A stretch of DNA of 64,000 bases from Candidatus Tanganyikabacteria bacterium (GTDB lineage: Bacteria > Cyanobacteriota > Sericytochromatia > S15B-MN24 > VGJW01): positions 4,038-68,037 of the forward strand of contig VGJY01000001.1 in the NCBI GenBank assembly GCA_016867235.1. The letters run 5' to 3'. The notes under the pieces are model-generated. The model made no database searches, was not told the origin of the DNA, and worked only from the letters and a program-made list of their open reading frames with translations. Positions within the stretch are counted from its first letter, which is position 1. The number at the start of each line of letters is the position of its first letter. Made by a program: the position numbers and the translations under genes. Positions 3,596-55,572 of the stretch are shown one piece after another.

Positions 3596-5098
3596 TCAGC
3601 GGGATCCCAGCTGGATGCGCCGGTCTGCCGGCGGTTCCAGCGTGGGATTCCCCTTGATCCCGTCGAGGACGAAGTCCCTCAGCAGGACGCCCATGTCCTC
3701 GTAGCCCTTGGCCTCGGTGAACGGCGTGTACTTGTCGTTGCCTTGCGCGATGTAGTCGATCGTCGTGATGCGGTAGGTCTTGCCGGGATCCAGCGGGCCG
3801 CCCCCGACGGACAGGTCGGCGATCTGGCCTCCGTCGATGCGGAATGACAGGCCGCTCACCTGCAGCATGCTCACGCGCTTGGACGCGACCATGTCGAGCA
3901 CCTGCTTGAGCTGCGCGCCGGTCATGTCCACCCGGACGATGCGATTCTCGAACGGGAAGACGGTGAACACGTCGGCGACCCTGACGGGGCCGGGATTGAT
4001 CGGTGCGCGCAGGCCGCCGGAGTTGAGGATCGCGACGTCGGCATTGGTCCTGGCGCGGAGTAGATCGGTGGCCCAGTTGCCCAGCTCGCAATCCCGATCG
4101 TACTTGCCGTCGACCGACAGCCCCCTGGGAGCCTGGCCGATCACCTTGGCCATGCGGTCGCGAATCTGGGACTCGTAGCCCTCGACGATCTTCGCCACGC
4201 CGGCGTCCTCGGGCGTGTCGCCCGCGATAGGGACCAGGTAGCCGTTGCTCGAGACGATCTTCCCGCCGTCCACTTCCAGCTCCAGCCGGCCGAGGTACTC
4301 GCCCCACTGGTAGGCCTGCAGCACCAGCGTGGTCCAGTCGCCGCTCTTCACCGCAATCGGCGCATCCACCTTGGTATGGCTGTGCCCGCCCACGATGACG
4401 TGGATGCCCGGCACCTCGGCTGCGAGGCGCTTGTCCTCTTCGAGGCCGCTGTGGCTCATCATCACGATGAAGTCGGCGCCGCGGGCCTTGAGGTCCGCGA
4501 CGGCTTTCTGCGCCACGGGCACCGCCGGCAGGACCTTGAGGCCCTTGCGCTGCGCGGCGGCGATGGCATGCCAGGCGCTGCCCTCGCCCAGGATTCCGAA
4601 GACGCCGACCTTGAGGCCCGAGCGTTCGACCAGCCAGGATGGCACGAAAAGCGGCTTGCCGGTCTGATCGTCCACCAGGTTGGTGTTGATCAGCTTGAAC
4701 TTGCGGCCCTTGTAGACGCGCTGGAGGTTGAGCAGGCCGTCGTCGAGATCGTGATTGCCGACCGTGACCGCATCGTAGCCCGCGGCGTCCATGGCGGCGA
4801 ACTCGGCCTCGCCGTGGAAGAAGTTGAAGATGGGCGTGCCCTGGAAGCAGTCGCCGCCGTCCAGGACCAGCACCCGGCCCGCCTGCTGCGCCTGCTCCTT
4901 CTTGATGATCGTGGCCCGCCGGGCGATCCCGCCGATCGACTTGAGATCCTTCTTGTCGTAGGGCGAAAGGTGGGAGTGCGTGTCGTTGGTGTGCAGGATG
5001 ATCAGCCGCGACGGCGCGGCCTCGGCCGTGGCCGTGGCTCCGCCGAACCCGATGGCGGCGGTGGCGAGAACGATGAGGGCGAGTGTACGGCGAAGCAC
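3596..5098 (-). CDS. Bifunctional metallophosphatase / 5'-nucleotidase (UshA family), exported
   Basis: LHTNDTHSH, GNHDLD and GGHSHT calcineurin-like motifs plus a 5'-nucleotidase C-terminal domain. Maximal ORF reaches 5155, but GTG at 5098 is preceded by AAGGAG and begins the signal peptide LRRTLALIVLATAAIG. Confidence 0.8.
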   Translation of the reverse strand: MLRRTLALIVLATAAIGFGGATATAEAAPSRLIILHTNDTHSHLSPYDKKDLKSIGGIARRATIIKKEQAQQAGRVLVLDGGDCFQGTPIFNFFHGEAEFAAMDAAGYDAVTVGNHDLDDGLLNLQRVYKGRKFKLINTNLVDDQTGKPLFVPSWLVERSGLKVGVFGILGEGSAWHAIAAAQRKGLKVLPAVPVAQKAVADLKARGADFIVMMSHSGLEEDKRLAAEVPGIHVIVGGHSHTKVDAPIAVKSGDWTTLVLQAYQWGEYLGRLELEVDGGKIVSSNGYLVPIAGDTPEDAGVAKIVEGYESQIRDRMAKVIGQAPRGLSVDGKYDRDCELGNWATDLLRARTNADVAILNSGGLRAPINPGPVRVADVFTVFPFENRIVRVDMTGAQLKQVLDMVASKRVSMLQVSGLSFRIDGGQIADLSVGGGPLDPGKTYRITTIDYIAQGNDKYTPFTEAKGYEDMGVLLRDFVLDGIKGNPTLEPPADRRIQLGSR

Positions 5099-5225: not shown

Positions 5226-6116
5226 ATGGCCATCCCGGCGCCGGTCAAGGATCTGTGGACGTTCTGGCGCGACATCGAGGCCAAGACCATGAGAGCCGTC
5301 GATGTCGCGCTTGTCGCCGTGCCCGGTCCCACGCGGGACGCGTGGCGCGACGCCCTGCTGCTCGGCAGCGACCACCGCGAGCGCTTGAAAGTCGTGGATC
5401 CCGACGATACCCGGCCGGTCAGGGCCGATCTCGCTATCGTGCTGCTGGATCTCGCGGCCGCCCCGTGGCGCGATTCATTCCGGGCGCTGGATCGCTTCCC
5501 CCGGGAGCGGATCGTCGCCGTCATCGTCGGGACGGGCAATGCCGAGCCCGGTCGCCAGCGCGAGGCGATCCGGGCGCTGGGCGTCTCCGAGACGCACGTG
5601 CTCCCCGCCGGCAACCTGGCGGATCTCGCGGGCCCGCTCGCGGCGCGGCTGTTTGGCCTGTTTCACGATCTCATCATTCCGCTGGCACGCCACTTCCCTG
5701 TCCTGCGGAGCACGGCGGCGTGGGAGGAGATCCACGCGACCGCCAAGCAAAACGCCATCGTGGGAGTGATCCCGGTCCCGGGCGGCGACATGCCCATCAT
5801 GACCGCCAACCAGATCAAGATGCTGCTGCGCATGGCGGCGATGTTCGACATGCCTCTGAATGGCAAGCGGGCGCGGGAAATCGTCGCCGTCGTGGGCGGG
5901 GGATTCGGGTTGCGCACGCTGGCGCGGCAGCTCGTCAAGGTCGTGCCGGGACCCGGCTGGATAGTGGGCGGCACGCTCGGCTACGGCGGCACGCTCGCGA
6001 TGGGCCGGGCGGCCCTGGAGTACTTCCGGCGGACGGCCCCCGGAACCGGGCCAGTTACCGTGCGGGCCGAGGACTGGCCAGACAAGCGGGACAACGGGCG
6101 AGGAGGCGACGCTTGA
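5226..6116 (+). CDS. Hypothetical protein, DUF697/YcjF-like C-terminal Gly-rich membrane-associated region
   Basis: Internal ATG (MAIPAPVKDLW...). C-terminal IPVPGGDMPIMTANQIKMLLRMAAMF...VVGGGFGLRTLARQL...GGTLGYGGTLAMG resembles DUF697; strong GC3. Confidence 0.5.
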   Translation: MAIPAPVKDLWTFWRDIEAKTMRAVDVALVAVPGPTRDAWRDALLLGSDHRERLKVVDPDDTRPVRADLAIVLLDLAAAPWRDSFRALDRFPRERIVAVIVGTGNAEPGRQREAIRALGVSETHVLPAGNLADLAGPLAARLFGLFHDLIIPLARHFPVLRSTAAWEEIHATAKQNAIVGVIPVPGGDMPIMTANQIKMLLRMAAMFDMPLNGKRAREIVAVVGGGFGLRTLARQLVKVVPGPGWIVGGTLGYGGTLAMGRAALEYFRRTAPGTGPVTVRAEDWPDKRDNGRGGDA

Positions 6117-6121
6117 GCTAC

Positions 6122-6745
6122 ATGGTGGATCTCCACCTGGCCGGCAAGATGGTCCTTGTGGTGGGTGGGGGCCGACTGGCCGAAGCCCATGCCGAGCAAC
6201 TCCTGGTCGCGGGGGCCCGCCTGCGCGTCGTCGCTCCCGAACTCACGACCGGCATGGCCAAGGTCGTCGAAGCGGCCGGGCTCGAATGGGTTGAGCGGGA
6301 CTACCGGGCGGACGATCTTGCCGACGCCTGGCTCGTGCTCGCGCTGACCGACGATCCGGCCACTAACGCGGCAATTTGCCGGGAGGCCGACGAGGCAGGA
6401 CGCCTGGTGTGCGGCGATGGCGACGGGTACCGGGGCAACATTGGCCTGCCGGCGGTGCTGCGGCGCGGCAGCGTGCTGATCGCCGCTTCCGCGGGGGTGC
6501 CGCACCTGGCCCGCCAGATCTTGCTGGAGCTCGAAGAGGATTTCGGTCCGGAATGGGCCGAATATGCCAATCGCCTGGATGCCCTCCACGACCGGATCGC
6601 GGCCGTGCCGGAGGGCATGGAGCGGCAGCGCCTCATCCACCGGCTCACGAGCCCCGCCGTCCTCGGCCTGGTGCGCAGCGGCGACACGGCCGAGTGGCAG
6701 GAGCACCTCGAAGCGGCAATCGCCCATCTGCCGGAGAGGGTCTGA
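6122..6745 (+). CDS. Precorrin-2 dehydrogenase / sirohydrochlorin ferrochelatase family (siroheme synthase N-terminal domain, SirC-like)
   Basis: Rossmann motif LVVGGGRLAEAHAEQLLVAGARLRVVAPE; 207 aa; starts 6 nt after the preceding gene's stop. Confidence 0.7.
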   Translation: MVDLHLAGKMVLVVGGGRLAEAHAEQLLVAGARLRVVAPELTTGMAKVVEAAGLEWVERDYRADDLADAWLVLALTDDPATNAAICREADEAGRLVCGDGDGYRGNIGLPAVLRRGSVLIAASAGVPHLARQILLELEEDFGPEWAEYANRLDALHDRIAAVPEGMERQRLIHRLTSPAVLGLVRSGDTAEWQEHLEAAIAHLPERV

Positions 6746-7749
6746 GCCCGCTGCTGGTTCTGGGCATCGAATCCAGCTGCGACGAGACCTCGGTCGCCCT
6801 CGTCGCGGACGGCGCGGTCATCCGCGCCAACCTGATCTCTTCGCAGGCCGATGTCCACGCCCGCTTCGGCGGCGTGGTCCCCGAGGTGGCCTCCCGCCGC
6901 CATATCGAGGTCGTGTCGCCCCTGCTGGGCGAGGCGCTGGAGAAGGCGGGCGCGACCTGGGAGGACGTGGGCGCCGTCGCGACGACCCGCGGGCCCGGTC
7001 TGGCCGGCGCCCTGCTCGTGGGCATGATGGCCGCCAAGGGCATCGCCTGGGCCCGCGGCGTTCCGCTGGTGGGAGTCAACCACCTGGCCGCGCACATCTG
7101 GGCCAATCGCATGGCCTTCCCCGACCTGCCGCTTCCCTTCCTGTGCCTCCTGGTCTCGGGAGGCCACACGGCGCTGGTGCGGGTGGAAGGCCCGGGCGAC
7201 TTCCGGGATCTCGGCCACACGCGCGACGACGCCGCCGGCGAGGCGTACGACAAGGTCGCCCGGCTCCTCGACCTGGGGTATCCCGGGGGCCCGGCGATCG
7301 ACCGGCTGGCGCAGACCGGCGATCCGCGGGCGTTCGACCTGCCGCGAGCCTTCCTGGAGGGCACCCGGGACTTCTCGTTCTCGGGCCTCAAGACCGCCGT
7401 GCGGCGCCTCGTGGAGAAGCACCGGTTGGCCGGCATCCCGCTCGACGTCGCCGGCATGGCCGCTTCCTTCCAGGCGGCGGTGGTGGACGTGCTGGTGGGC
7501 AAGGCGATCGCCGCGGCTGAGGGTGAGGGTCTGGCCGTCGTGGGGGTGGCCGGGGGCGTAGCCGCCAACTCGGCGTTGCGATCGCGCCTCGGCGAGGCTT
7601 GCGAGGAGCGGGGCTGGCGTTTCGTCTGCCCGCCTTTTGCGCTCTGCACGGACAATGCCGCGATGATCGCGGGCCTCGGTTACGAACTGTTGCGCCTGGG
7701 GCGGGAGGATGACTTGGCGATGCCGGCCGCGGCCCGGTTCCCGCTTTGA
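6694..7749 (+). CDS. tsaD: tRNA N6-adenosine threonylcarbamoyltransferase TsaD (Kae1/YgjD family)
   Basis: LVLGIESSCDETSVALV, HIEVVSP, GVNHLAAH and VSGGHTAL motifs. Start uncertain: GTG at 6694 (overlapping the upstream gene) or CTG at 6742; there is no ATG/GTG/TTG immediately before LVLGIES. Confidence 0.85.
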   Translation: MAGAPRSGNRPSAGEGLSPLLVLGIESSCDETSVALVADGAVIRANLISSQADVHARFGGVVPEVASRRHIEVVSPLLGEALEKAGATWEDVGAVATTRGPGLAGALLVGMMAAKGIAWARGVPLVGVNHLAAHIWANRMAFPDLPLPFLCLLVSGGHTALVRVEGPGDFRDLGHTRDDAAGEAYDKVARLLDLGYPGGPAIDRLAQTGDPRAFDLPRAFLEGTRDFSFSGLKTAVRRLVEKHRLAGIPLDVAGMAASFQAAVVDVLVGKAIAAAEGEGLAVVGVAGGVAANSALRSRLGEACEERGWRFVCPPFALCTDNAAMIAGLGYELLRLGREDDLAMPAAARFPL

Positions 7750-7797
7750 CCGCAACTGGTATAGAATTGCAAAGAGAGGCGACGTAGGAGACGCGGC

Positions 7798-8082
7798 GTG
7801 GATGTAAGCAATTTCCGGACCCTGGGAGAGTGCGATTTCGGCACCATCTGGCTCGTCGAGGGCGAAAAGAAGGTGGTGGTCAACGCCTACCAGGCCGCCC
7901 TGTACTTCAGCGTCGAGGATTTCGCGGCGTTCGCCCGGATGGTCGGCGATGCGGAGCGCCGCTTCGGCGACATCTTCAACCGCAGGCCGCAAGCGCCCGC
8001 GCCGGCGCCCGCCGAGAAGCCGGCGAGCAACTCCAAGATCCGCCAGTTCCGCCCGCTGAACACGCCGGCGCCCGAGGATTAG
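7798..8082 (+). CDS. Hypothetical small protein (94 aa)
   Basis: Intergenic ORF with high GC3 coding bias; no recognisable family. Confidence 0.5.
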
Positions 8083-8147
8083 CCTCCTCGGCACCACCGG
8101 TCCGGCCTGTTTCGCATGCGTTCTCAACGAGGAGGAGGTAAGACGAG

Positions 8148-8810
8148 GTGGTGACGGATTCCGAAATCTTGGACCACGTCCATGCGGTCCTCACCCGCGA
8201 TCCGAGGGTGCGGGACCGCAGCGAAGGGGGAAACATCACGGTTTTCTGCCGGGACGGGCAGATAGTCTTGGCGGGCGAGGTCGAGGAACTGCCGGCCAAG
8301 ATGGTGTCCGAACGCCTGGCCCGGGCGGTCAACGGCGTGCGCTGCGTGGTCAACAACCTGCGGGTCAAGGCCATCCCCAGTCGCACCGACGCCGAGATCC
8401 AGGCGCACCTGATGGACGCCTTCGAGCAGGATCACAGCCTGGACGAGCGCCTGCTGTCGCCGATCGTGCAGGACAGCGTGGTGACGCTCACGGGGACGGT
8501 GGACGCCCTGGCCAAGAAGCGCCTGGCGGGCCTGCTGGCGTGGTGGATCGCCGGCGTCCGCGACGTCAAGAACCACCTGACCGTGGCGCCGGAGGAAGAG
8601 GATTCCGACGCGGAAATCCTGGACTTCGTGTGCATCGCGCTGGAGATGGACAAACTGGTCGACGAGTCGCGCATCGGCGTCAAGGTCAAGGACGGCATCG
8701 TCACCCTGGTCGGCGTCGCGCACAACAGCCAGGAGGTCAGGCTCGCGGAGGCCGACGCCTGGGCGGTCCACGGCGTCAGGGACGTCGTCAACAAACTGGA
8801 AATGGAGTAA
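8148..8810 (+). CDS. BON domain-containing protein (OsmY-like, three BON repeats)
   Basis: Repeated BON-like segments ([34 protein letters not shown]; [34 protein letters not shown]). GTG start preceded by AGGAGGAGG; stop overlaps the ppiB start (TAATG). Confidence 0.75.
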
Positions 8811-9241
8811 TGAAGAAAGCCATCATAAGCACGGAAAAGGGCAACATCGAACTCGAACTCTTCGATAAGGACGCGCCGGGGACCGTCGCCAACTTCGAGA
8901 AGCTCGCCAAGTCGGGCTATTACGACGGCCTGACCTTCCACCGGGTCATCGAGGGCTTCATGTCCCAGGGCGGCTGTCCCAAGGGGACAGGCACCGGGGG
9001 GCCCGGTTACACCATCAAGTGCGAGACCGACGGAAATCCCCACAAGCACGTCCCGGGCGCCCTCTCGATGGCGCACGCCGGCAAGGATACCGGCGGCAGC
9101 CAGTTCTTCATCTGCCACGAGAACGCCGACTGGCTGGACGGCAAGCACACCGTCTTCGGCCAGACCCTCGCGGGCCTGGACATCGTGCGTTCCATGAAAA
9201 ACGGCTTCCGGATGGAGAAGGTCGAAATCGTAGAAGGCTAG
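8810..9241 (+). CDS. ppiB: Peptidyl-prolyl cis-trans isomerase, cyclophilin type
   Basis: Cyclophilin motifs [20 protein letters not shown] and HTVFG; 143 aa. Confidence 0.9.
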
Positions 9242-9414
9242 TGTCCCGCCGCGCTAATTCGTGGTGGGTTGCGGGCTGCGTTTTTCGGTCATGGCGAGGC
9301 GCACGAGAGCGCCGTGTACTTGAAGCGGCGCGGGTACACAAGCTCTCGGGCAACGAAGGCAGGGCCGAAAGGGCGCCGCCGAAGGCGCAACGAGTTAGTG
9401 CGGCGGGACACTAG
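9238..9414. mobile_element. MITE-like element (177 bp) with 15-bp perfect (24-bp imperfect) terminal inverted repeats CTAGTGTCCCGCCGC...GCGGCGGGACACTAG
   Basis: Perfect inverted repeat read at both ends; fills the whole intergenic gap between convergent genes and contains both stop codons (TAG 9239-9241; TAG on the minus strand 9411-9413). Interior is GC-rich with several local hairpins. Confidence 0.4.
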
Positions 9415-9881
9415 GGATAGCGGAACCGGCCGAACTGGTCGGCCAGGCCGCCCTGGACGTACGCCTCGCCCGAGAACGTCAGGGTGAGGCGACCATCGAT
9501 CTCTTCGAGGTAGCCGCGCTCCAAGGCGTCGCGCCATAGGTCTGGCGTGAACGCGTCGTCGGGAAACTCCGCATGCCAGGCCTTGTTGAGCTCCGAGAGG
9601 TCGTACTTCGACCGGCCCTCGTACTTTTCGAGGAAGTAGGCGAGGGTCAGCAGGCGATCGACCAGGCTTTCGGGCTCCTTGAGCGCGAGAAAGTCCTGGA
9701 ACGAGATGTTCTTGCGTACGCGGATGGGTTCGCGGTCGGGCAGCCGCTCGGGTTCGCGGACGGCCGGGTAGTTGAAGACCCTGGCCGCCCACTGGGCCAC
9801 GTGCTGCTCGACGAAATCGCGATCGCCGCGCACCTCGAATTCGAGGTCGCCGCGCCGCATCTTGAAGTGGTGCTCCGCCAC
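9411..9881 (-). CDS. Hypothetical protein (156 aa)
   Basis: ORF with strong GC3 bias; no recognisable family. Confidence 0.5.
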   Translation of the reverse strand: MAEHHFKMRRGDLEFEVRGDRDFVEQHVAQWAARVFNYPAVREPERLPDREPIRVRKNISFQDFLALKEPESLVDRLLTLAYFLEKYEGRSKYDLSELNKAWHAEFPDDAFTPDLWRDALERGYLEEIDGRLTLTFSGEAYVQGGLADQFGRFRYP

Positions 9882-9983
9882 GAGCAGATCTTACCCAATG
9901 GTCGGCCAACCGCCCGCCAGGTATGCTAAAATCGAACTTTCACCATAGATTCACGGCCAAGGAAAAATAGAGGTTTCGCGCGC

Positions 9984-10679
9984 ATGCCTTCCGTGAGCCA
10001 GATCCTGCGTCAAACTCGGGAAGCCAAGGGCATCACCCTCGACGATGTCGCCCACAAGACCTACATCAAGCTGCCCTACCTGATAGCGCTCGAAGAAGGC
10101 CACATCGACCAGCTTCTCGCCCCGGTGTTCGTCTACGGCAACATCCGCCAGTACGCCCGGTTGCTGGGCCTCAATGCCGAAGAACTCGTGCTGCAGTACC
10201 AGCAGGAAGCCAGGCGCGAGCATCCGAAGCTGGCGGCGATGCCCGTGCTGTCGACCGCCGACGCCGACCTCGTGCGCATCCCGGTCTATGCCATGGCCGA
10301 GGCCGGAAACGGCAACGGCAACCTGCGCGCCGGCGCCAACGGCCATGCCGAGCCGGAGACCGGCTCCGTGCCCGCCGACGACGTCCTGCAGCCGATCACG
10401 GCCGCCGAAGTCCACCTGGTCGAAAGGAAGGTGTCAATGGAGCGCCCCCACCCCGTCGCCTTCCAGGGCTCCGACAAGGACGTCGCCGCCGCGCAGACCG
10501 AGGCGCAGCGCATCGTCGCCGAGGCGCAGCGGGAAGCCGACCGCCTCCGGCGGGACGCCGAGAAGTACGCCTTCCAGGTCCTGTCCGATCTGGAGGCCGA
10601 GCTGGGCCGCACCCTGGCCATCATCAAGAATGGCCGGCAGTACCTCCAGCAGCGCCGCCGCCAGCGCCCGGACGCCTGA
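9984..10679 (+). CDS. Helix-turn-helix domain protein (RodZ-like N-terminus, coiled-coil C-terminus)
   Basis: N-terminus LRQTREAKGITLDDVAHKTYIKLPYLIALEEGHIDQLLAPVFVYGNIRQYARLLGL matches the XRE/RodZ HTH module. TGcTAAAAT extended -10 about 55 nt upstream. Confidence 0.65.
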   Translation: MPSVSQILRQTREAKGITLDDVAHKTYIKLPYLIALEEGHIDQLLAPVFVYGNIRQYARLLGLNAEELVLQYQQEARREHPKLAAMPVLSTADADLVRIPVYAMAEAGNGNGNLRAGANGHAEPETGSVPADDVLQPITAAEVHLVERKVSMERPHPVAFQGSDKDVAAAQTEAQRIVAEAQREADRLRRDAEKYAFQVLSDLEAELGRTLAIIKNGRQYLQQRRRQRPDA

Positions 10680-10850
10680 TAGCGCAGCTCGCATGACTTC
10701 GCTCCGGCATGGCGGCCGGCACGGAGGCCGGCCCCACCCGCCGCATCGGTGGCGCAGGCCTCCGTGCCTGCGGCAGAGAGGCGCTAGGCCAATTGAGAAG
10801 CGCTGCTATGGCGTCGCCGGCTGCTTCGTTACGCCGCTGCCTCCCGGCCT
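10677..10850. repeat. Interspersed ~170-bp element, copy 1, containing a conserved stem-loop (GCACGGAGGCC...GGCCTCCGTGC)
   Basis: About 85% identical over >110 nt (weaker to ~170 nt) to the reverse complement of 40610-40786. Both copies begin exactly at a TGA stop (TGATAGCGC.GCTC...). Occupies the convergent gap between the HTH gene and flhG. Confidence 0.5.
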
Positions 10851-11728
10851 TACTTGAAAAGAACCTTGCCCAGCCTCGCGAAGAAGCTCTCCCGGGCGAC
10901 CGGCGCGTGGGATAGGTCCTGCGCCAGGATGGACGCGGCCAGCATGTTCACGCGCTTGCTGGCCAGCGAGTAGGGGTACGCCCGCAGGAAGGGCTGCTGC
11001 TGCAGGACGCTGCGGCCGACGTTGCCGTCCTTCTCGACCCAGCCCAGCAGGCCCACGCGGACCGTGAGGAAGCGCTCGATGATGCCCGAAACCTTGGCGT
11101 GGACGCTGCGCGCCTCCTGCTCGGACTCGACCATGTTGACCACCAGCGAGATCCGCGCCTGCGGATTGCGGCTGTCGAGGGTCTTGATGATGCCGTAGGC
11201 GTCCACGATGGCCGTCGGCTCGGGGGTCGTCACGACCAGGACCTCGGGCGCCGCCAGGACGAAGCCCAGGACGTTTGGCGAGATGCCGGCCCCCGTGTCC
11301 ACCAGGAGCAGTTCGGCGGCGTTTTCGAGCGTCGCCAGTTGCGCGAGTGTGTTGCTCAGCACCGGGGCGTCCAGCGAGGCAAGCTGCGCCACGCCAGAGC
11401 CGCCCGGCACGACGGCGAGGAACGGATCGACCGGGAAGACGATTTCCCAGAGGCCCTTGCGGCCGGCGATCACGTCGGTGATGGTATATGGCGGCGAGAT
11501 GTTGAGGATGACGTCGACGTTGGCCATCCCCATGTCGGCGTCGAAGAGCAGGACGCGGCGGCGCCGCGCCGCCAGCGCCAGGGCCAGGTTGACCGTGAGG
11601 TTGGTCTTGCCGACGCCTCCCTTGCCCGACGTGACGACCAGGATGCGGCTGCGGGGCGGGGCGGCAAGCGGAGCTGCGGCGGCCGGCTGGCTGCCGACCA
11701 GCTCGCGGAGCCGGGCGGCCTGGTCCAC
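10850..11728 (-). CDS. flhG: Flagellar number regulator FlhG/FleN (MinD/ParA-family ATPase)
   Basis: Deviant Walker A VTSGKGGVGKT; MinD-like body; immediately downstream of flhF. Confidence 0.8.
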   Translation of the reverse strand: MDQAARLRELVGSQPAAAAPLAAPPRSRILVVTSGKGGVGKTNLTVNLALALAARRRRVLLFDADMGMANVDVILNISPPYTITDVIAGRKGLWEIVFPVDPFLAVVPGGSGVAQLASLDAPVLSNTLAQLATLENAAELLLVDTGAGISPNVLGFVLAAPEVLVVTTPEPTAIVDAYGIIKTLDSRNPQARISLVVNMVESEQEARSVHAKVSGIIERFLTVRVGLLGWVEKDGNVGRSVLQQQPFLRAYPYSLASKRVNMLAASILAQDLSHAPVARESFFARLGKVLFK

Positions 11729-38381: not shown

Positions 38382-38476
38382 TGGGCACGGCTTGCCGTCC
38401 TTCACGCAGGCAGGCAGCCGCCCGCCATCGTGACGCTTTTCGTAGGTTCCCCGCGGGCGGGGATAGCGTGTTAGGA
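38382..38476. repeat. ~95-bp direct repeat, copy A (flanks the COG1373 ATPase gene; overlaps its last 6 nt)
   Basis: About 85% identical to 40011-40105 in the same orientation; contains the CCCCGCGGGCGGGG hairpin. Confidence 0.6.
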
Positions 38477-39802
38477 GCCGGACCCTGCACCTCTGGCCGC
38501 GCCGTCGAGCAGGAAGCGCCAGGCAGGAGTCACCTCGATTCGCCGGCCTTCGCTCTCGAGAACCTCCTGCTCGCTCCACGTCACCACGGTTGCCGCCTTG
38601 GCCTCCACCTCGCGCATCGCCTCCCCGAGGGCCGCCAACTCGCGCTTGCGAGTCGCCCGGTCCGCCAACGACTGGCTGACTTGGACGAGTGCGGGGACGC
38701 GACCGCGATCCGGTATCGCGAAGTCCACTTCGCGGCCCGTCCGGGTCCGGTAGTAGCGGATCTCGGAGTGCCGGCGCCGCAGCGCCATGAATACCAGGTT
38801 TTCGAGGAGGTGGCCCGAGTTGACGAGGAGCCCTGACGTCACCGACGTGACCAGGGAGTGGTCAACGCAGTAGATCTTCTTCGGGTTGGCGAGGCTCCTG
38901 GTCAGCGAGGCGTCGTGGAGACGCACGGTGAACAGGAAGTATGCATCCTCGAACCACTCCAGGTACTCGGAGACCGCGGCCTTGGGTGCCCTGTGCCCGA
39001 GAGCCTTGAGATGCCCGGTGAGACCGTTGATGGAGTAAAGCGACCCCGCGTTGTCGATCAGCCAGTAGGCCAGATCCGTCAGAGCCTTGGGGTGAGAGAT
39101 GTCGTGGCGTTCGATCAGGTCCCTGAACAGGATCGCGTTCAGGTAGTCCTGGTGGGTGGCGATCCGCAGATCGCGCCGCAGTCCGGCTACCTCGGGAAAT
39201 CCCCCCTCGGCCCAGTAGCGCTCGAAGGCGTCCTGCACCAGCAGCCTGCCGCGTGTGGAGAGGGCTTCTCCGGCCGGCACGCCCGCGAATCTCAGGTATT
39301 CCCGGAAAGAAAACGGGAACAGCTCCCAGGACAGGGCACGGCCACGCATCTGCGTGGCGACTTCCTTCGACAGGAGCTTCGCCGACGAGCCGGTCAGGTA
39401 GATCTGGCACTTCTCGGTGCGCAAGAGCCGGTCGATGAAGGGCTCCCAGCCCGGCACCATCTGGATCTCGTCGAAGAAGCAGTGGACGGTCTCGGTATCC
39501 TTCTTCGCCGGATAGAGGCCGAAGTAGGCCTCGACGATCGCGCCGAGGTCGTCGTGCCGCATACCGTGAAGGCGGTCGTCGAAGAAGTTGAGGTACAGGA
39601 TGTTCTCGCGAGGCACATCGCGGGCGAGCAAGCCATGCATGACCTGGGACAGGTAGGTCGACTTGCCGCACCGGCGAACGCCCACCAGGACGGTGGCCTT
39701 GCCCGGGACAGGTGCCACCTGCAACTCCCTCGGAACGCCCGGCTCCAGACGACCATCCTGAGAATCCAGGATGAGCGCCTTGAGCATCTCGACGAGGGAC
39801 AT
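38471..39802 (-). CDS. AAA+ ATPase of the COG1373 family (AAA_14 + DUF4143)
   Basis: Walker A VGVRRCGKST; conserved COG1373 architecture; 443 aa. Confidence 0.8.
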   Translation of the reverse strand: MSLVEMLKALILDSQDGRLEPGVPRELQVAPVPGKATVLVGVRRCGKSTYLSQVMHGLLARDVPRENILYLNFFDDRLHGMRHDDLGAIVEAYFGLYPAKKDTETVHCFFDEIQMVPGWEPFIDRLLRTEKCQIYLTGSSAKLLSKEVATQMRGRALSWELFPFSFREYLRFAGVPAGEALSTRGRLLVQDAFERYWAEGGFPEVAGLRRDLRIATHQDYLNAILFRDLIERHDISHPKALTDLAYWLIDNAGSLYSINGLTGHLKALGHRAPKAAVSEYLEWFEDAYFLFTVRLHDASLTRSLANPKKIYCVDHSLVTSVTSGLLVNSGHLLENLVFMALRRRHSEIRYYRTRTGREVDFAIPDRGRVPALVQVSQSLADRATRKRELAALGEAMREVEAKAATVVTWSEQEVLESEGRRIEVTPAWRFLLDGAARGAGSGS

Positions 39803-40010: not shown

Positions 40011-40105
40011 TGGGCACGGTCGGCCGTCCTTCACGCAGGCAGGCGACCGCCTGGCATCGTGACGTTTTTCGTAGATTCCCCGCCGGCGGGGCTGGCGTGT
40101 AAAGA
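40011..40105. repeat. ~95-bp direct repeat, copy B
   Basis: Matches 38382-38476. Confidence 0.6.
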
Positions 40106-40221
40106 TTGATGTGAATTCACCGCCGGTGTTGAGAATCTCTCTCAACAAGCCCCTCGAATGTGTCGTAGTGTCACTTTCGAGGTTAACTTAACCTTTCGGG
40201 TCGTGATGGGCCTGGACCGAC

Positions 40222-40473
40222 CTATCGGGCGCCATCTCGGGGGGCGACCCAGAATGGCGGTGTCCTTCCTGTGCGAGAGACAAGCACGCGTCCGACCCCG
40301 CCGCGTAACGCGGTCTTGATGCGCTTCGCCATCGGCTCGCGCTGCGGGGTCCTCCAGCGGTCGGTGAAAACGCACGGCAGAACCTGCTCGAAGCCCAGGT
40401 CCCGTCGCGCCTGCTCGACCTTGTGGTAGGTCGAGCAGGCGCGACGTCCACGACGACGAGCCATGTCCCGAAG
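40222..40473 (-). pseudogene. Possible gene remnant encoding a basic 83-aa peptide (MARRRGRRACSTYHKVEQARRDLGFEQ...)
   Basis: ORF with atypically low GC3 and rare CGT codons for this genome, inside a degenerate segment between repeats; no confident homology. Confidence 0.2.
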
Positions 40474-40609
40474 CTCACCATCGGATGCGTAGCGCCTGGA
40501 GCGGGGGACCACCTTGGAGCCAGTCTCGCAGGCGGACGGCGTGGTGATCCAGGTGGGCCGCAAGGGGGCGTTCCTCGCCTCCCCACGGCGTGGGCCTCTG
40601 CAGCGCCTC

Positions 40610-40786
40610 GGTCCGCCCGGGGAAGGGGTCGCCAAGCACTTGCTTGATGGCGCCTCATAGCGGCGCTCAAATGACCTGGCGCCTATCGGACGCAGGCACG
40701 GAGGCCTGCGCCACCGATGCAACGGGTGGGGCCGGCCTCCGTGCCGGCCGCGATGCCGGAGCGAAGTCATCAGAGCCGCGCTATCA
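40610..40786. repeat. Interspersed ~170-bp hairpin-containing element, copy 2 (inverted relative to copy 1)
   Basis: Reverse complement aligns to 10677-10850; begins at the TGA stop of the 66-aa ORF (40784-40786). Confidence 0.5.
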
Positions 40787-40984
40787 GTAGAGCGATCCCG
40801 CCCGGCCTGCGGCCGCGAAGATCTTCCGCCGGGCGGCGGCGATGTCCTTGGCGTCGATGTAGTCCAGGGAGTCGGCGCCTTTCCTGATCTCCTCGGCGAC
40901 GTCACGGAGTGTGGACCCGACGGGCGTCTTGAGCCGTCCCTGGTACTTCGCCAGGTACCTGAGCATCCGGTCCTGGTTGCGCAT
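40784..40984 (-). CDS. Hypothetical small protein (66 aa)
   Basis: ORF with protein-like composition immediately downstream of the second COG1373 ATPase; no family assignment. Confidence 0.4.
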   Translation of the reverse strand: MRNQDRMLRYLAKYQGRLKTPVGSTLRDVAEEIRKGADSLDYIDAKDIAAARRKIFAAAGRAGSLY

Positions 40985-41131
40985 CTTGGCACCGATGAGA
41001 TCCCGGGAAACCGGGATGGAAAGAGGACCCTGTCTACCGACCCCAGCGAGGTCGCAATGACGGGCACCCCTTCACTCATTGACCCTTGCTTGGTTATCTT
41101 TTCCCCGGCCAAGGCGCGACAAAGCAGATCC

Positions 41132-42400
41132 TCATGGCCCCAGGGCCCCGACCGGAATGACGAGCACTCCGTCGTCGCGCCGGTACGTGTATCCCGTGGC
41201 GGTGAGGACTCCGAGACAGGCGGGCTTGCGAACGGTTCGCCCGGCCAACCTGAGCAGGGCCGTCGCGGCGGCGTCGATGTCGGCTGCGCCGAGCTTCACC
41301 TCGAAGGCGGCCCAGGCGCCGTCTTCCCTTTCGATCACCGCGTCGCATTCGAGATCTCCCTTTTCCTCGCGATAGTGCAGCACGGAGGCACGGGCGGCCT
41401 GGGCGAAGACCCTGAGATCCCGCACCACCAGCGACTCGAACAGGAAGCCAAAAGTACGCAGATCCCCGAGGAGGCCGGCCGCGTCGCGATGCAAGAGGGC
41501 GGCCGCAAGGGCGGGATCGGCCAGGTGCCGCTTGGGCGCGGCGGTCAGACGCGAGCGCGATCTCAGTTCCGGCTGCCAGGCTGGCTGGTCTTCCACGACC
41601 ATGAGCCGTGCAAGTGCATCGAGATACTCCGTTCCTGTCCATCTCGAAGGGCCGCCGCCAGCGCCGCCGCCAGCATCCTCGCCCGCCGCCCGCTGGACGA
41701 TCGTGGCGAGCCTGGCGGGGTGAGCGACGACCTGCGCGAAGGCGTGCAAGAAGCGCCGGACGCGCACCGGATCGCGACGAACGCCGTCGACGGTGTGGAT
41801 GTCGATGTCGACGATCGTATCGACGTAACCGCGATTGAACCGTACGGCTGCTTGCTCGTCTGCCATGAGGAGAGCGGGCCAGCCCCCTGTTGCGACTTCG
41901 CTGGCATAGTCCCTCACGGTCAATTCTGATCGCGCCGGCTCCGGTCCCTCTCCGTCGAGCAGCCGGGAAATGGAGGCTGCGCCCGAAGACTTCCCGCGTT
42001 CGAACAGCGTCATGGGGCGCATCTGCACTATCGAGAACCTTCCAGCTCCGCCATGGCGCCGGATGTCGGCCGGACGCCGTGCCGAACCCGTCAACAGGAA
42101 CTGTCCCGCCAGGCCTCGATCGTCCACGGCGCGCCGGACCGCGTTCCAGATCTCCGGAACGATTTGCCACTCATCCAGCAAGCGCGGCGTCGGGCCGTCA
42201 AGGACCAACCGGGGATCCACTCTCGCAGCCAGCGCCGCCTGGGGGTCCAGGTCGAGCAAGACCTCGCTTCCGGCATGTTGGCGAGCGGACTCGGTCTTGC
42301 CGCAGGCCTTCGGCCCCTCGATCGCGACCGCTCCAAGGGCACTCATGGCGTCGCTGACCTCGCGGTCCACGACGCGGGGTCGGTAGGTTCTTCTGGTCAT
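41132..42400 (-). CDS. AAA+ ATPase of the COG1373 family (second copy)
   Basis: Walker A IEGPKACGKTE; DUF4143-type C-terminus; 422 aa. Confidence 0.8.
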   Translation of the reverse strand: MTRRTYRPRVVDREVSDAMSALGAVAIEGPKACGKTESARQHAGSEVLLDLDPQAALAARVDPRLVLDGPTPRLLDEWQIVPEIWNAVRRAVDDRGLAGQFLLTGSARRPADIRRHGGAGRFSIVQMRPMTLFERGKSSGAASISRLLDGEGPEPARSELTVRDYASEVATGGWPALLMADEQAAVRFNRGYVDTIVDIDIHTVDGVRRDPVRVRRFLHAFAQVVAHPARLATIVQRAAGEDAGGGAGGGPSRWTGTEYLDALARLMVVEDQPAWQPELRSRSRLTAAPKRHLADPALAAALLHRDAAGLLGDLRTFGFLFESLVVRDLRVFAQAARASVLHYREEKGDLECDAVIEREDGAWAAFEVKLGAADIDAAATALLRLAGRTVRKPACLGVLTATGYTYRRDDGVLVIPVGALGP

Positions 42401-52860: not shown

Positions 52861-54524
52861 TCCCGCCCCCCTGCGGCGAGGTTCCGCTGCTTGCGGCGCT
52901 CCCGCCGGCGCTGATCGCGGATGCCCGGCCCGGAGCGCCGATCGTCATCCCGCTGGCCGCCGATCCGGCGACACCCTCGGCGGCAGGCGGGCCGACCGGG
53001 GATGCGCTCGAGATCCTGGCCGATCGGGTGGAGGTGGATCTGGACGACGAGGTCCTTCAGGCGCGTGGCGGTGTCCAGGTGGCTTACCTCGACTATCGCC
53101 TCAGGGCGGCCGAACTGCTCTACGACGCCATCAACGATCGGGGCCGCGCGGGCGGAAAGATCCACCTGCGGACGACCGCCTACCAGATCGACTCCGAGCA
53201 CATCGAGTTCGACATCCGCAACGAGCAGGCGATGGTCGGGCCATGGAGCGGGGTCGCGGCCGGCCGCGGGCGCCTGTCGGGAGCGTTCCTGTTCGTGTCG
53301 CCGTCGTACGCCTACGCGTCGGGCGCCACTTACAGCCCATGCATGGCCGACGACCCGGGTTACTTCCTGGCCAGCGAGAAGTTCGAATGGTTTCCGTACA
53401 ACGGCCGGCAGCACTTCGAGGGGGACAACGTCACGGTCCACCTGTCCGGCGCGCCGGTCGCGAAGGTGCCGTTGCTGCGCACCGCGGTGGAGCCGGGGGA
53501 AGAACTCGAGCGCGAGCGGCGCCGCCCCGGGCAGGCCGTCGACACGCAGCTTGGCTACAACACCTATGACGGCGCCTTCGCCACGGGCAAGGGGACGTTC
53601 CAGCTCGCGGACGGCCACCTGGGCACCATTCCGGTGCGCATCACCCAGGGGCGCGGCCTGCTCATCGGCACCACCCAGAATTTCGCCTGGGAGCGCTGGT
53701 CGTTCTCCGGCGACGCCACCTACCAGACGCGGTATCAGGGCGGAACCGCCGGGCCCCGCGCCAACGTGACCGGGCTGACGACCATCCCGCGCGGCCCGGC
53801 CCTCTCGGTCGGCCTCGGCTATCGCTCCGACGTGGCGGGCCAGGCGGTGCACCGCTTTCCCGAGGTGGGCGTGACCTTCCCGGGCGTCTCGCTGGGGCCG
53901 CTCGCGCTGACCGCGGGAACCCGCCTGGGCTACATGATGGAAAACTATCCCGATCCGACCGCACCCCCGCCCGATCCCATCAACCCGTTCGCCCAGCAAC
54001 CCGAGAAGATCGGCGTGCGCGCCGCGGCGGCCGGCTATCGGCTGGGCGTCGCGGCACCTGCCTGGCGGCCCAACGGCTTCTGGGAGTCGCAACTGTACAC
54101 CGCGGGTTCGGTCGCCATGTACCTCGAGCGCGACGAGCCCGGGGAGTGGAGCCGCAGTCCGCGGCACCAGGCGGTAGGTACGCTGGGTTTGCGCAACACG
54201 CAGCGCTGGACGGATTTCCTGTCGACCCAGGTGGGCCTCGAGTCGCACCGCACTGAAGGCCTGTCCCCCTTCCTGCACGACCGCGCCTATCCGTCCGACA
54301 TGATCTCGCTGGGGTTCACGCTGCAGCCCCATGCACGGTGGGCGCTGTCAGCCGGCACGCTCTTCTCGCGACCGCCCGACCAGCCCAGTTTCGCCCGCAA
54401 CGACCTCACGGTGCGACTGGGATACAGCGGTCCCTGCCTGTCGTGGGCGATCTCGATGCAGATTCTGTCTTTCCAGCCGTTTTCGCCCGCGATTTCCTTC
54501 GACTATCAGATCGGCTCCCTCTGA
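52857..54524 (+). CDS. LptD/OstA-like outer-membrane protein (putative LPS-assembly protein)
   Basis: OstA-like N-terminal domain (LEILADRVEVDLDDEVLQARGGVQVAYLDYRLRAAELLYD...GKIHL), an LptD-like TSC/YSPC region, and a Gly/Tyr-rich beta-barrel C-terminus; ATGA overlap with the DUF58 gene. Confidence 0.5.
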   Translation: MIPPPCGEVPLLAALPPALIADARPGAPIVIPLAADPATPSAAGGPTGDALEILADRVEVDLDDEVLQARGGVQVAYLDYRLRAAELLYDAINDRGRAGGKIHLRTTAYQIDSEHIEFDIRNEQAMVGPWSGVAAGRGRLSGAFLFVSPSYAYASGATYSPCMADDPGYFLASEKFEWFPYNGRQHFEGDNVTVHLSGAPVAKVPLLRTAVEPGEELERERRRPGQAVDTQLGYNTYDGAFATGKGTFQLADGHLGTIPVRITQGRGLLIGTTQNFAWERWSFSGDATYQTRYQGGTAGPRANVTGLTTIPRGPALSVGLGYRSDVAGQAVHRFPEVGVTFPGVSLGPLALTAGTRLGYMMENYPDPTAPPPDPINPFAQQPEKIGVRAAAAGYRLGVAAPAWRPNGFWESQLYTAGSVAMYLERDEPGEWSRSPRHQAVGTLGLRNTQRWTDFLSTQVGLESHRTEGLSPFLHDRAYPSDMISLGFTLQPHARWALSAGTLFSRPPDQPSFARNDLTVRLGYSGPCLSWAISMQILSFQPFSPAISFDYQIGSL

Positions 54525-54553
54525 GATATGCTCCGCGCCGGGGGGCGAGGAAG

Positions 54554-54805
54554 ATGGCAGAATTCACGGTCGGCAGGCATGCGCGGAAGTTCGGGGTGGC
54601 GGCGGTACTGGAGGCGGTCTCCGACGTGTCCTTTCCGCTCAGCAGGGAGCGCCTGATCCTCCTTTGCGGCGACCGCGAGGTCGAGGTCCGCCCCGGCACG
54701 CGGCGAAAGCTGGGGGATCTGGTCTCGCGGTGCGCCGAGTGCGAGGATTTCAACTCGGCGGAAGATCTGATCTCGCAGATCGAGAGCGAGATGGTGACCA
54801 CCTAG
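54554..54805 (+). CDS. Small protein, DUF2795-like
   Basis: AVLEAVSDVSFPLSRERLILLCGDREVEV...LGDLVSRCAECEDFNSAEDLISQIE fits the DUF2795 pattern; GAGGAAG RBS. Confidence 0.5.
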   Translation: MAEFTVGRHARKFGVAAVLEAVSDVSFPLSRERLILLCGDREVEVRPGTRRKLGDLVSRCAECEDFNSAEDLISQIESEMVTT

Positions 54806-54812
54806 CAGCCTG

Positions 54813-55454: not shown

Positions 55455-55572
55455 CGGCGGCCTCCGCAGGAGGAGGCTGCCAGGGTCCCGGGATGGCGTA
55501 AAGGGCCGGCTGGCCGCAGGCTCTCCCGGGCGCCGGCCGCGGCACGCTGATTCCCTCCTCTCTCCCGGGTAC

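What the first reader, a model, noticed from the sequence alone, without database searches (positions are those of the whole stretch)
9238..9414. 177-bp MITE-like element whose terminal inverted repeats supply the stop codons of two convergent genes
The sequence CTAGTGTCCCGCCGC (9238-9252) is perfectly inverted as GCGGCGGGACACTAG (9400-9414), and extends to 24 bp with 2 mismatches. The ppiB stop codon (TAG 9239-9241) and the stop codon of the minus-strand gene (TAG on the complement of 9411-9413) both sit inside these repeats. The element is exactly the whole intergenic space. Its interior is GC-rich with nested hairpins. Two readings fit. One is a miniature inverted-repeat transposable element inserted at a CTAG/TA site. 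The other is a structured small RNA gene closed by a long terminal helix that also acts as a bidirectional terminator.
Basis: seen in the sequence. Interest (0 to 1): 0.6.

Follow-up and report, generated by a model that had tools for sequence, protein, structure and literature searches.

The report
Orphan MITE-like palindrome between convergent genes
A 177-base DNA palindrome fills the gap between two genes that face each other in an uncultured bacterium; it is most likely a small non-coding "jumping" element that landed on their shared stop signal and now forms an RNA hairpin at both gene ends, which is an ordinary kind of feature.

Summary
Window 9238-9414 is a 25-nt, 92% inverted repeat closing a whole-length imperfect palindrome. 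It folds into one rod hairpin (-110 kcal/mol, z = -9 on the + strand). It runs exactly from the ppiB stop codon to the stop codon of the convergent 156-aa gene.

It matches no Rfam family, 6S RNA included. Six orthologous loci lack it: their spacers are 22-39 bp (four loci, one of them a duplicate of the same sequence) or 142 bp, or hold other genes. It is therefore a gain in this lineage.

Both stop codons sit at positions shared with orthologs. Removing the element plus one TA leaves GGCTAGGG, in which both stops share one CTAG. That is the footprint of a TA- or CTAG-duplicating transposon (IS630/Tc1-mariner or IS5 style).

The neighbouring convergent spacer holds a second, unrelated TA-flanked palindrome of about 130 bp. 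That one is repeated in the window, so this genome does carry such elements.

No second copy of the 177-bp element and no parent transposase was found. However, the source genome was not visible in the searchable collections, so mobility is inferred, not shown.

Verdict: probable orphan MITE, probably acting as a 3' hairpin or bidirectional terminator. Low to moderate interest.

The parts
8810..9241 (+). ppiB-type cyclophilin gene (143 aa). Its TAG stop (9239-9241) lies inside the left CTAG.
   Evidence: Pfam Pro_isomerase E = 3.5e-43. The identical 143-aa gene is called on Logan contig L001. The stop is at the same position as in orthologs L011, L005 and L004.
9238..9241 (.). Left CTAG. The proposed target-site duplication is TA (9239-9240) or the whole CTAG.
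   Evidence: Sequence. CTAG is rare: 31 sites in 64 kb, about a third of them at stop codons.
9241..9262 (.). Left terminal inverted repeat, GTGTCCCGCCGCGCTAATTCGT.
   Evidence: the repeat finder I1: arms of 25 nt including CTAG, 92% complementary.
9263..9389 (.). Palindromic body. It comprises short interrupted helices (9265-9276 / 9378-9389) and a 13-bp helix (9278-9290 / 9363-9376). These are followed by a weakly paired internal loop (9291-9303 / 9349-9362) and an apical hairpin (9304-9348) whose loop is at 9323-9330.
   Evidence: MFE structure and helix list. Aligning the two halves gives 62 matches, 22 mismatches and 8 gaps.
9390..9411 (.). Right terminal inverted repeat, ACGAGTTAGTGCGGCGGGACAC.
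   Evidence: the repeat finder I1.
9411..9414 (.). Right CTAG. The proposed duplicated TA is at 9412-9413. The complement of 9411-9413 is the stop codon of the 156-aa gene.
   Evidence: Sequence and ORF list.
9411..9881 (-). Convergent 156-aa gene of unknown function. It belongs to a small family found only in uncultured bacteria. The C-terminal domain looks like a winged helix.
   Evidence: No Pfam match. Twelve homologs among 5.8 billion protein clusters. AlphaFold2 mean pLDDT 77; best Foldseek PDB matches are winged-helix domains at E about 0.03. The C-terminus ...RYP* is shared with P0002.

Best explanation
The 177-bp feature is a non-coding, whole-length imperfect palindrome: a core of about 171 bp flanked by TA inside CTAG. 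It was gained in this lineage by insertion into a single CTAG in which the stop codons of ppiB and the convergent 156-aa gene overlapped. In other words, it is a MITE-type non-autonomous element. It would have been moved by a transposase that duplicates TA (IS630/Tc1-mariner style) or CTAG (IS5 style).

CTAG and TA are rare in this 68% GC genome and are concentrated at stop codons. Such an element therefore tends to land on stop codons, and the duplication leaves both reading frames intact. Once in place, both convergent transcripts read into it and fold it into a long hairpin with a 25-bp closing helix. That hairpin most likely works as a bidirectional terminator or 3'-end stabiliser, and it is a potential RNase III substrate.

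Shown: the inverted repeat and the fold; absence from orthologous loci; stop positions shared with orthologs; the C-TA...TA-G flanks; and a second, repeated, TA-flanked palindromic family in the same genome.

Inferred: mobility, the transposase type, and the terminator or stability function.
For: 1. Anatomy.
- 25-nt terminal inverted repeats at 92%.
- Whole-length palindrome folding at -110.3 kcal/mol, z = -9.1.
- No homolog of any six-frame translation in 5.8 billion protein clusters.
- Size and shape match the literature description of bacterial MITEs: 100-400 bp, terminal repeats ending in TA, transcripts forming very stable stem-loops (PMC5896051; PMC2229807).

2. Insertion polymorphism.
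- In orthologous loci the ppiB / 156-aa-gene spacer is 22 bp (L005), 35 bp (L012 and L013, which are the same sequence), 39 bp (L011) or 142 bp (L004). In L007 other genes lie between the two.
- None of these spacers shows significant similarity to the element.

3. Clean empty site.
- The ppiB stop is at the position shared with orthologs and is TAG in L011, L005 and L004.
- The other gene ends ...RYP*, as in P0002.
- Deleting 9241-9412 gives GGCTAGGG, with both stops in one CTAG.
- A comparably compact convergent junction exists elsewhere in the window: CTAGCAGCCTGCTAG at 54802-54816, between two Pfam-supported genes.

4. Target logic. There are only 31 CTAG sites in 64 kb, and about a third of them are stop codons.

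5. Precedent in the same genome.
- The next convergent spacer holds a TA-flanked palindrome of about 130 bp (10680-10811).
- A second copy lies at 40657-40783 on the other strand (114 of 132 aligned columns identical). Both copies sit directly after a TGA stop.
- Orthologous spacers at the first site are only 13-68 bp.

6. Assembly hint.
- Two Logan contigs from SRR7985589 are 100% identical to window 5781-9293 and 9364-10716.
- Three of their four ends lie inside the two palindromic elements. This is the pattern expected where a k-mer graph meets a repeat.
Against: - No second copy and no parent transposase was found anywhere: the window, JGI metagenomes (two hits, both single-arm chance matches in coding sequence), GTDB genomes, IMG/VR (both hits chance), plasmids and phages, and the protein database. 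A single-copy 'MITE' fails the defining criterion.
- These negatives are weak. The element's own locus was not returned by any of those collections, so the source genome is effectively unsampled there.
- Insertion requires an ancestral state with no spacer between the two genes. Four recovered orthologous loci have a 22-39-bp spacer carrying a small hairpin.
- The CTAG flanks are not independent evidence. They follow automatically from two C-TAG stop codons, and about 17% of genes here end that way.
- G-U pairs favour the + strand (9 against 3 in the MFE structures; 8 against 3 in the half-against-half alignment). The + strand folds 27 kcal/mol better. This hints at selection on an RNA rather than neutral decay of a DNA palindrome.
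Confidence: 0.5

Rival explanations
1. A hairpin that evolved in place. The short terminator hairpin seen between these two convergent genes in relatives was replaced or expanded in situ, for example by palindrome extension or template switching, into a 177-nt rod that runs from stop to stop. It was never mobile. It acts as a bidirectional, U-tract-independent terminator and 3' protective structure.
For: - It is single-copy in every search that could be run.
- Relatives have small hairpins at the same place.
- A native mini-palindrome that includes two convergent CTAG stops exists at 54802-54816 without any element. Stops embedded in a palindrome therefore do not require a transposon.
- The G-U bias towards the + strand suggests selection at the RNA level.
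Against: - It has no significant sequence similarity to the orthologous spacers.
- At 177 nt it is far longer than any other terminator-like hairpin in the window.
- Neither strand has a U-tract, and the terminator scan finds nothing.
- The neighbouring spacer gained a demonstrably repeated palindrome. That shows insertion is how such structures arise in this genome.
- The clean C-TA...TA-G footprint is unexplained under this view.
Confidence: 0.27
2. A structured regulatory RNA. It would either have its own promoter or be processed from the ppiB 3' UTR. A 6S-like RNA polymerase decoy is one possibility: long closing stem, central bubble, terminal hairpin. Another is a double-stranded RNA substrate that couples the decay of the two convergent mRNAs.
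For: - The architecture resembles 6S RNA at a coarse level: closing stem, 13 x 14 internal loop, apical hairpin, 177 nt in total.
- Fold z = -9.1, and the + strand is 27 kcal/mol more stable than the - strand.
- There are 9 G-U pairs on the + strand against 3 on the - strand.
Against: - No Rfam family matches, even at E <= 10 on the element alone. The only hit is a 16-bit hairpin-shape match to plant MIR918. None of Rfam's 6S RNA families matched.
- There is no promoter-like site.
- It is absent from all relatives, so no covariation test is possible and there is no conservation.
- A perfect 25-bp closing helix is atypical of 6S RNA and would invite RNase III cleavage (my own knowledge of 6S RNA).
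Confidence: 0.1
3. An assembly artefact (fold-back chimera) or a chance inverted repeat.
For: - Palindromes can be produced by amplification or assembly errors.
- The Logan assembly does not span bases 9294-9363.
Against: - The palindrome is imperfect (62 matches, 22 mismatches, 8 gaps). A fold-back chimera would be perfect.
- Logan contigs from SRR7985589 reproduce 56 nt and 51 nt of its two ends, joined to the correct flanks, at 100% identity. Whether that run is independent of the window's source is not known.
- Fold z = -9.1, and the self-reverse-complement match has E = 1.5e-6.
Confidence: 0.03

Closest known systems
Bacterial TA-duplicating MITEs linked to IS630/Tc1-mariner transposases (RUP of Streptococcus pneumoniae, Correia/NEMIS of Neisseria, Nezha of cyanobacteria)
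   Same: - Size of 100-200 bp, non-coding, with terminal inverted repeats of about 25 bp.
- TA at both ends.
- The whole element folds into a long RNA hairpin when co-transcribed with neighbouring genes.
- Intergenic location at gene 3' ends (PMC2229807; PMC5896051).
- IS630 itself targets CTAG and duplicates TA (my own knowledge of the family).
   Different: - Those families are defined by tens to hundreds of copies and by ends that match a resident IS. Here only one copy and no transposase are known.
- There is no sequence similarity to any of them (Rfam).
IS5-derived MITEs that duplicate CTAG (for example MITEPsy1 of Pseudomonas syringae)
   Same: MITEPsy1 is a 100-nt element with 18-nt terminal repeats. 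It inserts at CTAG or YTAA and duplicates 4 nt (PMC3189936). The CTAG...CTAG flanks here fit this equally well.
   Different: - The ends here (TGTCCCGCC under this reading) do not resemble the GGAAGGT/GAGGGTG-type IS5-family ends listed in that paper.
- Copy number is unknown.
- Because CTAG is itself a palindrome, a TA duplication and a CTAG duplication cannot be told apart.
The about 130-bp palindromic repeat in the same window (10680-10811 and 40657-40783)
   Same: - TA-flanked, whole-length imperfect palindrome.
- Sits immediately after a stop codon.
- Occupies a spacer that is only 13-68 bp in relatives.
   Different: - Its sequence is unrelated, and its ends are different (GCGCRGCTC...).
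- It folds no better than shuffles (z about -2) and equally well on both strands.
- It is demonstrably present in at least two copies.
6S RNA (Rfam RF00013 and related models)
   Same: Total length of about 180 nt and a rod shape with an internal loop.
   Different: - No covariance-model match at all.
- The closing stem is perfectly paired for 25 bp.
- The apical arm is short.
- It is not conserved in related genomes.
Bidirectional intrinsic terminators between convergent genes
   Same: A hairpin placed between two convergent stop codons. Relatives have such small hairpins at this site.
   Different: It is five to ten times longer than usual, has no U-tract on either side, and is not homologous to the hairpins in relatives.

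Membership tests
MITE (miniature inverted-repeat transposable element, generic) | Small (about 100-400 bp) and non-coding | tested here: met
   Total length 177 bp. The six-frame translation has no homolog in the protein database. It lies wholly between two stop codons.
MITE (generic) | Terminal inverted repeats | tested here: met
   Arms of 25 nt, 92% complementary, with the outer 15 nt perfect.
MITE (generic) | Flanking target-site duplication | tested here: inconclusive
   TA (or CTAG) is present on both sides. These bases are also the two stop codons, and CTAG is itself a palindrome, so a duplication cannot be separated from an extension of the inverted repeat.
MITE (generic) | Multiple dispersed copies in the genome | tested here: not met
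   No second copy in the 64-kb window or in any collection. The rest of the source genome could not be searched, so the test is weak. Logan contig ends inside the element are a hint of further copies, not proof.
MITE (generic) | Presence/absence polymorphism at orthologous sites | tested here: met
   Absent from L004, L005, L007, L011 and L012/L013. These relatives are distant (45-70% protein identity), so no exact empty site was seen.
IS630/Tc1-mariner-derived MITE | Ends matching a resident IS630-family transposase gene | not testable with these tools
   No sequence with matching ends in the window. Pfam was run on only 15 of the window's ORFs and none was a transposase. The rest of the genome is unavailable.
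IS630/Tc1-mariner-derived MITE | Insertion at TA (IS630: CTAG) with TA duplication | tested here: met
   C-TA-[GTGTCCC...GGGACAC]-TA-G. This is compatible but not exclusive, since an IS5-type CTAG duplication fits equally.
6S RNA | Match to the Rfam covariance models (closing stem, central bubble, terminal stem with conserved positions) | tested here: not met
   No match at E <= 1 in 1.1 kb, nor at E <= 10 on the element alone.
REP/BIME elements (RAYT-associated, GTAG- or CGTC-tagged 20-40-bp palindromes) | Short 20-40-bp palindrome with a GTAG or CGTC head, in high copy number | tested here: not met
   The element is 177 bp, its ends read CTAGTG and not GTAG/CGTC, and only one copy is known. 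The family definition is taken from the abstract of PMC3733652.
Intrinsic (Rho-independent) terminator | GC-rich hairpin followed by a U-tract | tested here: not met
   The terminator scan finds no site on either strand in 8700-10100. The bases after the stem are GGAUAGCGG on the + strand and CCUUCUACG on the - strand. Hairpin-only termination is still possible.
Retron msr-msd | Adjacent reverse transcriptase gene | tested here: not met
   The neighbouring genes are a cyclophilin, a BON-domain protein, a winged-helix-like 156-aa protein and an HTH_25 protein.

The most novel reading that the evidence does not exclude
The element is not just a dead transposon. It would be a lineage-specific structured RNA taken over from a palindromic insertion: a rod with a 25-bp closing helix, a 13 x 14-nt internal loop and G-U pairs biased to the ppiB sense strand. 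It would either be released from the ppiB 3' UTR as a 6S-like or double-stranded regulatory RNA, or serve as a shared RNase III site that couples the stability of the two convergent mRNAs.
Probability: 0.07. Interest if true: 0.5.

Novelty: new member of a known kind. Interest (0 to 1): 0.25.

Why it matters
If this is a MITE, it is one more example of something already known. In high-GC genomes, TA- or CTAG-targeting elements are funnelled onto stop codons, and they can slip between two abutting convergent genes without damaging either. In doing so they supply a ready-made long hairpin at both 3' ends.

It also shows that this poorly sampled uncultured lineage carries at least two families of such palindromic elements. 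That matters mainly for annotation and assembly, because short-read contigs break in them. It also gives a candidate case of a mobile element turned terminator.

It does not open a new question. The only route to higher interest is the low-probability case that the + strand hairpin is a functional RNA.

Tried and rejected
- **Rfam.** I scanned the locus at E <= 1, the whole window at gathering thresholds, and the element alone at E <= 10. The only result was a meaningless 16-bit match to the plant miRNA precursor MIR918. 6S RNA, SRP RNA, Y RNA and the like are rejected.
- **Searches for further copies.**
  - The 15-mer with up to 3 mismatches, blastn and nhmmer in the window found nothing.
  - An exact 24-mer in GTDB genomes found nothing.
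  - A 19-nt arm pattern in JGI metagenomes gave two hits, L008 and L009. Both are single-arm matches in coding sequence, so they are chance.
  - The same arm pattern in IMG/VR gave nothing. A two-arm gapped pattern in IMG/VR hit L016, a GGGACAC-rich repeat tract, and L017, coding sequence. Both are chance.
  - Sensitive blastn against plasmids and phages gave only short chance hits.
  - A concatenated six-frame translation searched against 5.8 billion protein clusters, meant to catch ORFs called across other copies, gave nothing.
- **Remnant of the ancestral spacer.** CGTGGTGGGTTGCGGGC looked similar to the L011 spacer, but it was not significant in blastn, so I dropped it.
- **Inversion of the inner segment** as the cause of the Logan contig break. 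Rejected because the short inner repeats would place the breakpoints elsewhere (reasoning).
- **Integron attC site.** The ends do not fit the RYYYAAC/GTTRRRY motifs as I recall them, and ppiB is a syntenic housekeeping gene rather than a cassette (my reading).
- **Retron.** No reverse transcriptase is present.
- **Taxonomy.** The only GTDB relatives are MAGs labelled simply 'bacterium', so no phylum-level context was obtained.
- **Raw folding energy in sliding windows.** This does not single out the element, because 80%-GC coding regions reach similar values. Only the composition-corrected z-score does.

Full report
**1. The observation**

- Window 9238-9262 and 9390-9414 are inverted repeats of 25 nt with two mismatches (92%). 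The outer 15 nt are perfect.
- The ppiB-type cyclophilin gene (8810-9241; Pfam Pro_isomerase E = 3.5e-43) stops at TAG 9239-9241.
- The convergent 156-aa ORF (9411-9881, minus strand) stops on the complement of 9411-9413.
- The feature therefore fills the whole gap between the two genes.

The 177 nt form one rod-like hairpin of 68 base pairs.
- On the + strand it folds at -110.3 kcal/mol, against -73.5 +/- 4.0 for dinucleotide shuffles (z = -9.1).
- On the - strand it folds at -82.9 kcal/mol (z = -6.7).
- The helices are a 25-bp closing stem, short interrupted helices and a 13-bp helix (9278-9290 / 9363-9376). These are followed by a weakly paired internal loop of about 13 x 14 nt (9291-9303 / 9349-9362) and an apical hairpin (9304-9348).
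- At the DNA level the two halves align with 62 matches, 22 mismatches and 8 gaps. It is a real but imperfect palindrome, not a fold-back assembly artefact.
- It is the only long-range inverted repeat of this type in the 64-kb window. None occurs in 54 kb of related loci.

**2. What it is not**

No Rfam family matches. I scanned the locus at E <= 1, the whole window at gathering thresholds, and the element alone at E <= 10. The only result was a 16-bit hairpin-shape hit to a plant miRNA precursor. 6S RNA was the most tempting analogy because of the closing stem, internal loop and terminal hairpin at about 180 nt. It is not supported. No promoter-like or canonical terminator-like site was found. 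No translation of the element has a homolog. No reverse transcriptase, integrase or transposase is adjacent.

**3. Comparison with relatives**

The 156-aa protein belongs to a tiny family: 12 clusters among 5.8 billion, all from metagenomes. I recovered the encoding contigs of several members.

| Locus | Arrangement between ppiB and the 156-aa gene homolog |
|---|---|
| L005 | 22-bp spacer |
| L012 / L013 (same sequence from two assemblies) | 35-bp spacer |
| L011 | 39-bp spacer |
| L004 | 142-bp spacer |
| L007 | other genes lie between them |
| L002 | no ppiB nearby |

- None of these spacers has significant similarity to the element. They carry short, ordinary terminator hairpins. The 177-bp structure is therefore a gain in the window's lineage.
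- The ppiB stop is at the same position as in L011, L005 and L004, and it is TAG in all three.
- The 156-aa gene ends ...RYP*, like its 70%-identical relative P0002, which uses TGA.
- The element therefore did not truncate or extend either protein.

**4. The insertion footprint**

The junctions read C-TA-[GTGTCCC...GGGACAC]-TA-G. Removing the core plus one TA gives ...GAAGGCTAGGGATAGCG.... In that sequence both genes stop within one palindromic CTAG and overlap by two bases.

This is the footprint of two known transposon types.
- IS630/Tc1-mariner-type elements have a TA target, which for IS630 itself is CTAG, and duplicate TA (my own knowledge). RUP and IS630-Spn1 are cited for this in PMC2229807.
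- IS5-type elements duplicate CTAG. MITEPsy1 is an example (PMC3189936).

The two cannot be told apart, because CTAG is its own reverse complement.

The required ancestral state, convergent genes with almost no spacer, is plausible here. At 54802-54816, two Pfam-supported convergent genes are separated by 7 nt, and their stops lie in the mini-palindrome CTAGCAGCCTGCTAG.

CTAG is strongly depleted: 31 sites in 64 kb. About a third of those sites are stop codons. TAG is a frequent stop in my rough gene set (22 TAG, 20 TGA, 12 TAA). A CTAG- or TA-seeking element would therefore often land on a stop codon.

One caveat applies. Because the flanks are the stop codons, the 'duplication' is not independent of the observation that the stops lie within the repeat.

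**5. A second, repeated palindrome next door**

The adjacent convergent spacer lies between the RodZ-like HTH_25 gene (9984-10679) and the FlhG/ParA-like gene (10850-11728). It contains a whole-length palindrome of about 130 bp at 10680-10811.
- A second copy lies at 40657-40783 on the opposite strand, with 114 of 132 aligned columns identical.
- Both copies are flanked by TA. Both start right after a TGA stop codon (TGA-TA-GCGC...) of a gene on the same strand.
- The orthologous spacers at the first site are only 13-68 bp.

This genome therefore does carry TA-flanked palindromic repeats that insert at gene 3' ends. This is the strongest indirect support for reading the 177-bp element the same way. 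The two families share no sequence.

**6. Copy number, the missing test**

I found no second copy of the 177-bp element in any of the following.
- The window.
- GTDB species genomes.
- JGI metagenomes, where both hits were chance single-arm matches in coding sequence.
- IMG/VR.
- Plasmids and phages.
- Called proteins.

None of those collections returned the element's own locus either. The source genome is effectively not searchable, so the negative result is weak.

One hint points the other way. Two Logan contigs from run SRR7985589 are 100% identical to window 5781-9293 and 9364-10716. Three of their four ends lie inside the two palindromic elements.

If those contigs come from a k = 31 graph (my recollection of the Logan pipeline), a contig that enters a repeat ends 30 nt after the last copy-specific base.
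- For the proven repeat, this places that base at 10686. That is exactly an A/G difference between its two copies.
- For the 177-bp element, it implies that 9264-9393 is shared with another sequence in that sample.
- A coverage dropout across a strong hairpin would look similar, so this is a lead and not evidence of mobility.

**7. Mechanism**

The most likely history is an insertion of a non-autonomous element into the shared CTAG, with both stops preserved by the duplication (confidence about 0.5).

The present-day effect is inferred. Both convergent transcripts run into the element, and each forms a long hairpin whose base is a 25-bp helix. That would block 3' exonucleases, cause hairpin-dependent termination in both directions, and make a good RNase III substrate, as has been shown for Neisseria Correia/NEMIS elements (PMC2229807).

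The + strand fold is 27 kcal/mol better and has 9 G-U pairs against 3 on the other strand. This is unexplained. It is the main reason to keep some weight on RNA-level selection. With only 12 such pairs in total, the imbalance is not statistically significant.

**8. Rivals**

| Explanation | Confidence | Main point for | Main point against |
|---|---|---|---|
| Terminator hairpin evolved and expanded in place, never mobile | about 0.27 | single copy everywhere searched | no homology to relatives' spacers; the neighbouring repeat shows insertion is the local mechanism |
| Independent structured sRNA, 6S-like or derived from the 3' UTR | about 0.1 | shape and strand bias | no Rfam match, no promoter, no conservation |
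| Artefact or chance | about 0.03 | Logan assembly does not span 9294-9363 | imperfect palindrome; ends reproduced in Logan contigs of SRR7985589; z = -9 |

**9. Verdict**

The MITE reading is partly supported, because the defining multi-copy test could not be met.

This is best filed as a probable new, orphan member of a known kind: bacterial TA/CTAG-targeting palindromic MITEs acting as 3' hairpins. Interest is about 0.25.

Noticed in passing
window 10680-10811 (+) and 40657-40783 (-): A second, unrelated family of TA-flanked, whole-length palindromic repeats of about 130 bp, with a 24-27-bp core hairpin. There are two copies in the window, with 114 of 132 aligned columns identical. Each starts directly after the TGA stop of a gene on the same strand (TGA-TA-GCGC...). 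Orthologous spacers at the first site are only 13-68 bp, so this too is an insertion. It folds no better than shuffles (z about -2) and equally well on both strands.
   Followed up: partly
window 54802-54816: Two Pfam-supported convergent genes (DUF5789, 54338-54805 +; PRC-barrel/DUF2171, 54813-56087 -) are separated by only 7 nt. Both stop codons lie in the mini-palindrome CTAGCAGCCTGCTAG. This looks like a natural 'empty-site' arrangement.
   Followed up: partly
window 5781-9293 and 9364-10716 (Logan contigs L001 and L010, run SRR7985589): These short-read contigs are 100% identical to the window. They stop inside the 177-bp element on both sides, leaving 9294-9363 unassembled, and also inside the 130-bp repeat at 10716. 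That last end is exactly 30 nt past the A/G difference between the two repeat copies at 10686. The pattern is compatible with k = 31 repeat branching, or with a coverage dropout at hairpins.
   Followed up: partly
window 9411-9881 (-); relatives P0002-P0012; L007 3406-5486: The 156-aa neighbour belongs to a very small family with no Pfam match (12 clusters, all from metagenomes or MAGs labelled 'bacterium'). It has an N-terminal beta-hairpin plus helix, a variable linker, and a C-terminal domain that looks like a winged helix (AlphaFold2 pLDDT 77; Foldseek E about 0.03). It usually sits between a RodZ-like HTH_25 gene next to the FlhF/FlhG flagellar genes and the BON-ppiB pair. In L007 it overlaps the end of an SMC_N/AAA_23 ATPase gene, which suggests an operon.
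   Followed up: partly
whole window (rough gene set of 54 ORFs): Stop-codon usage looks unusual for a 68% GC genome: TAG 22, TGA 20, TAA 12. CTAG is strongly depleted (31 sites in 64 kb), and about a third of the sites are stop codons. The gene calls rest only on a simple GC3-based heuristic.
   Followed up: no
window 40100-41130: About 1 kb has no convincing gene apart from a 66-aa ORF (40784-40984, -). It lies between two paralogous AAA_14/DUF4143 ATPase genes (38471-39802 and 41132-42400). It contains a perfect 19-bp hairpin (40403-40446) and copy 2 of the 130-bp repeat.
   Followed up: no
L016 4520-4790 (IMG/VR contig IMGVR_UViG_3300021560_000085): A viral contig picked up by chance carries a dense tract of GGGACAC/GTGTCCC motifs in both orientations over about 250 bp. 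It looks like an array of protein-binding sites. It is unrelated to the finding.
   Followed up: no
L005 about 4008-4075 (shown reverse-complemented): The RodZ/FlhG spacer of this relative contains a tandem direct repeat, ACAAGTAGCGCCCTGAC x2, that includes the stop codon region.
   Followed up: no
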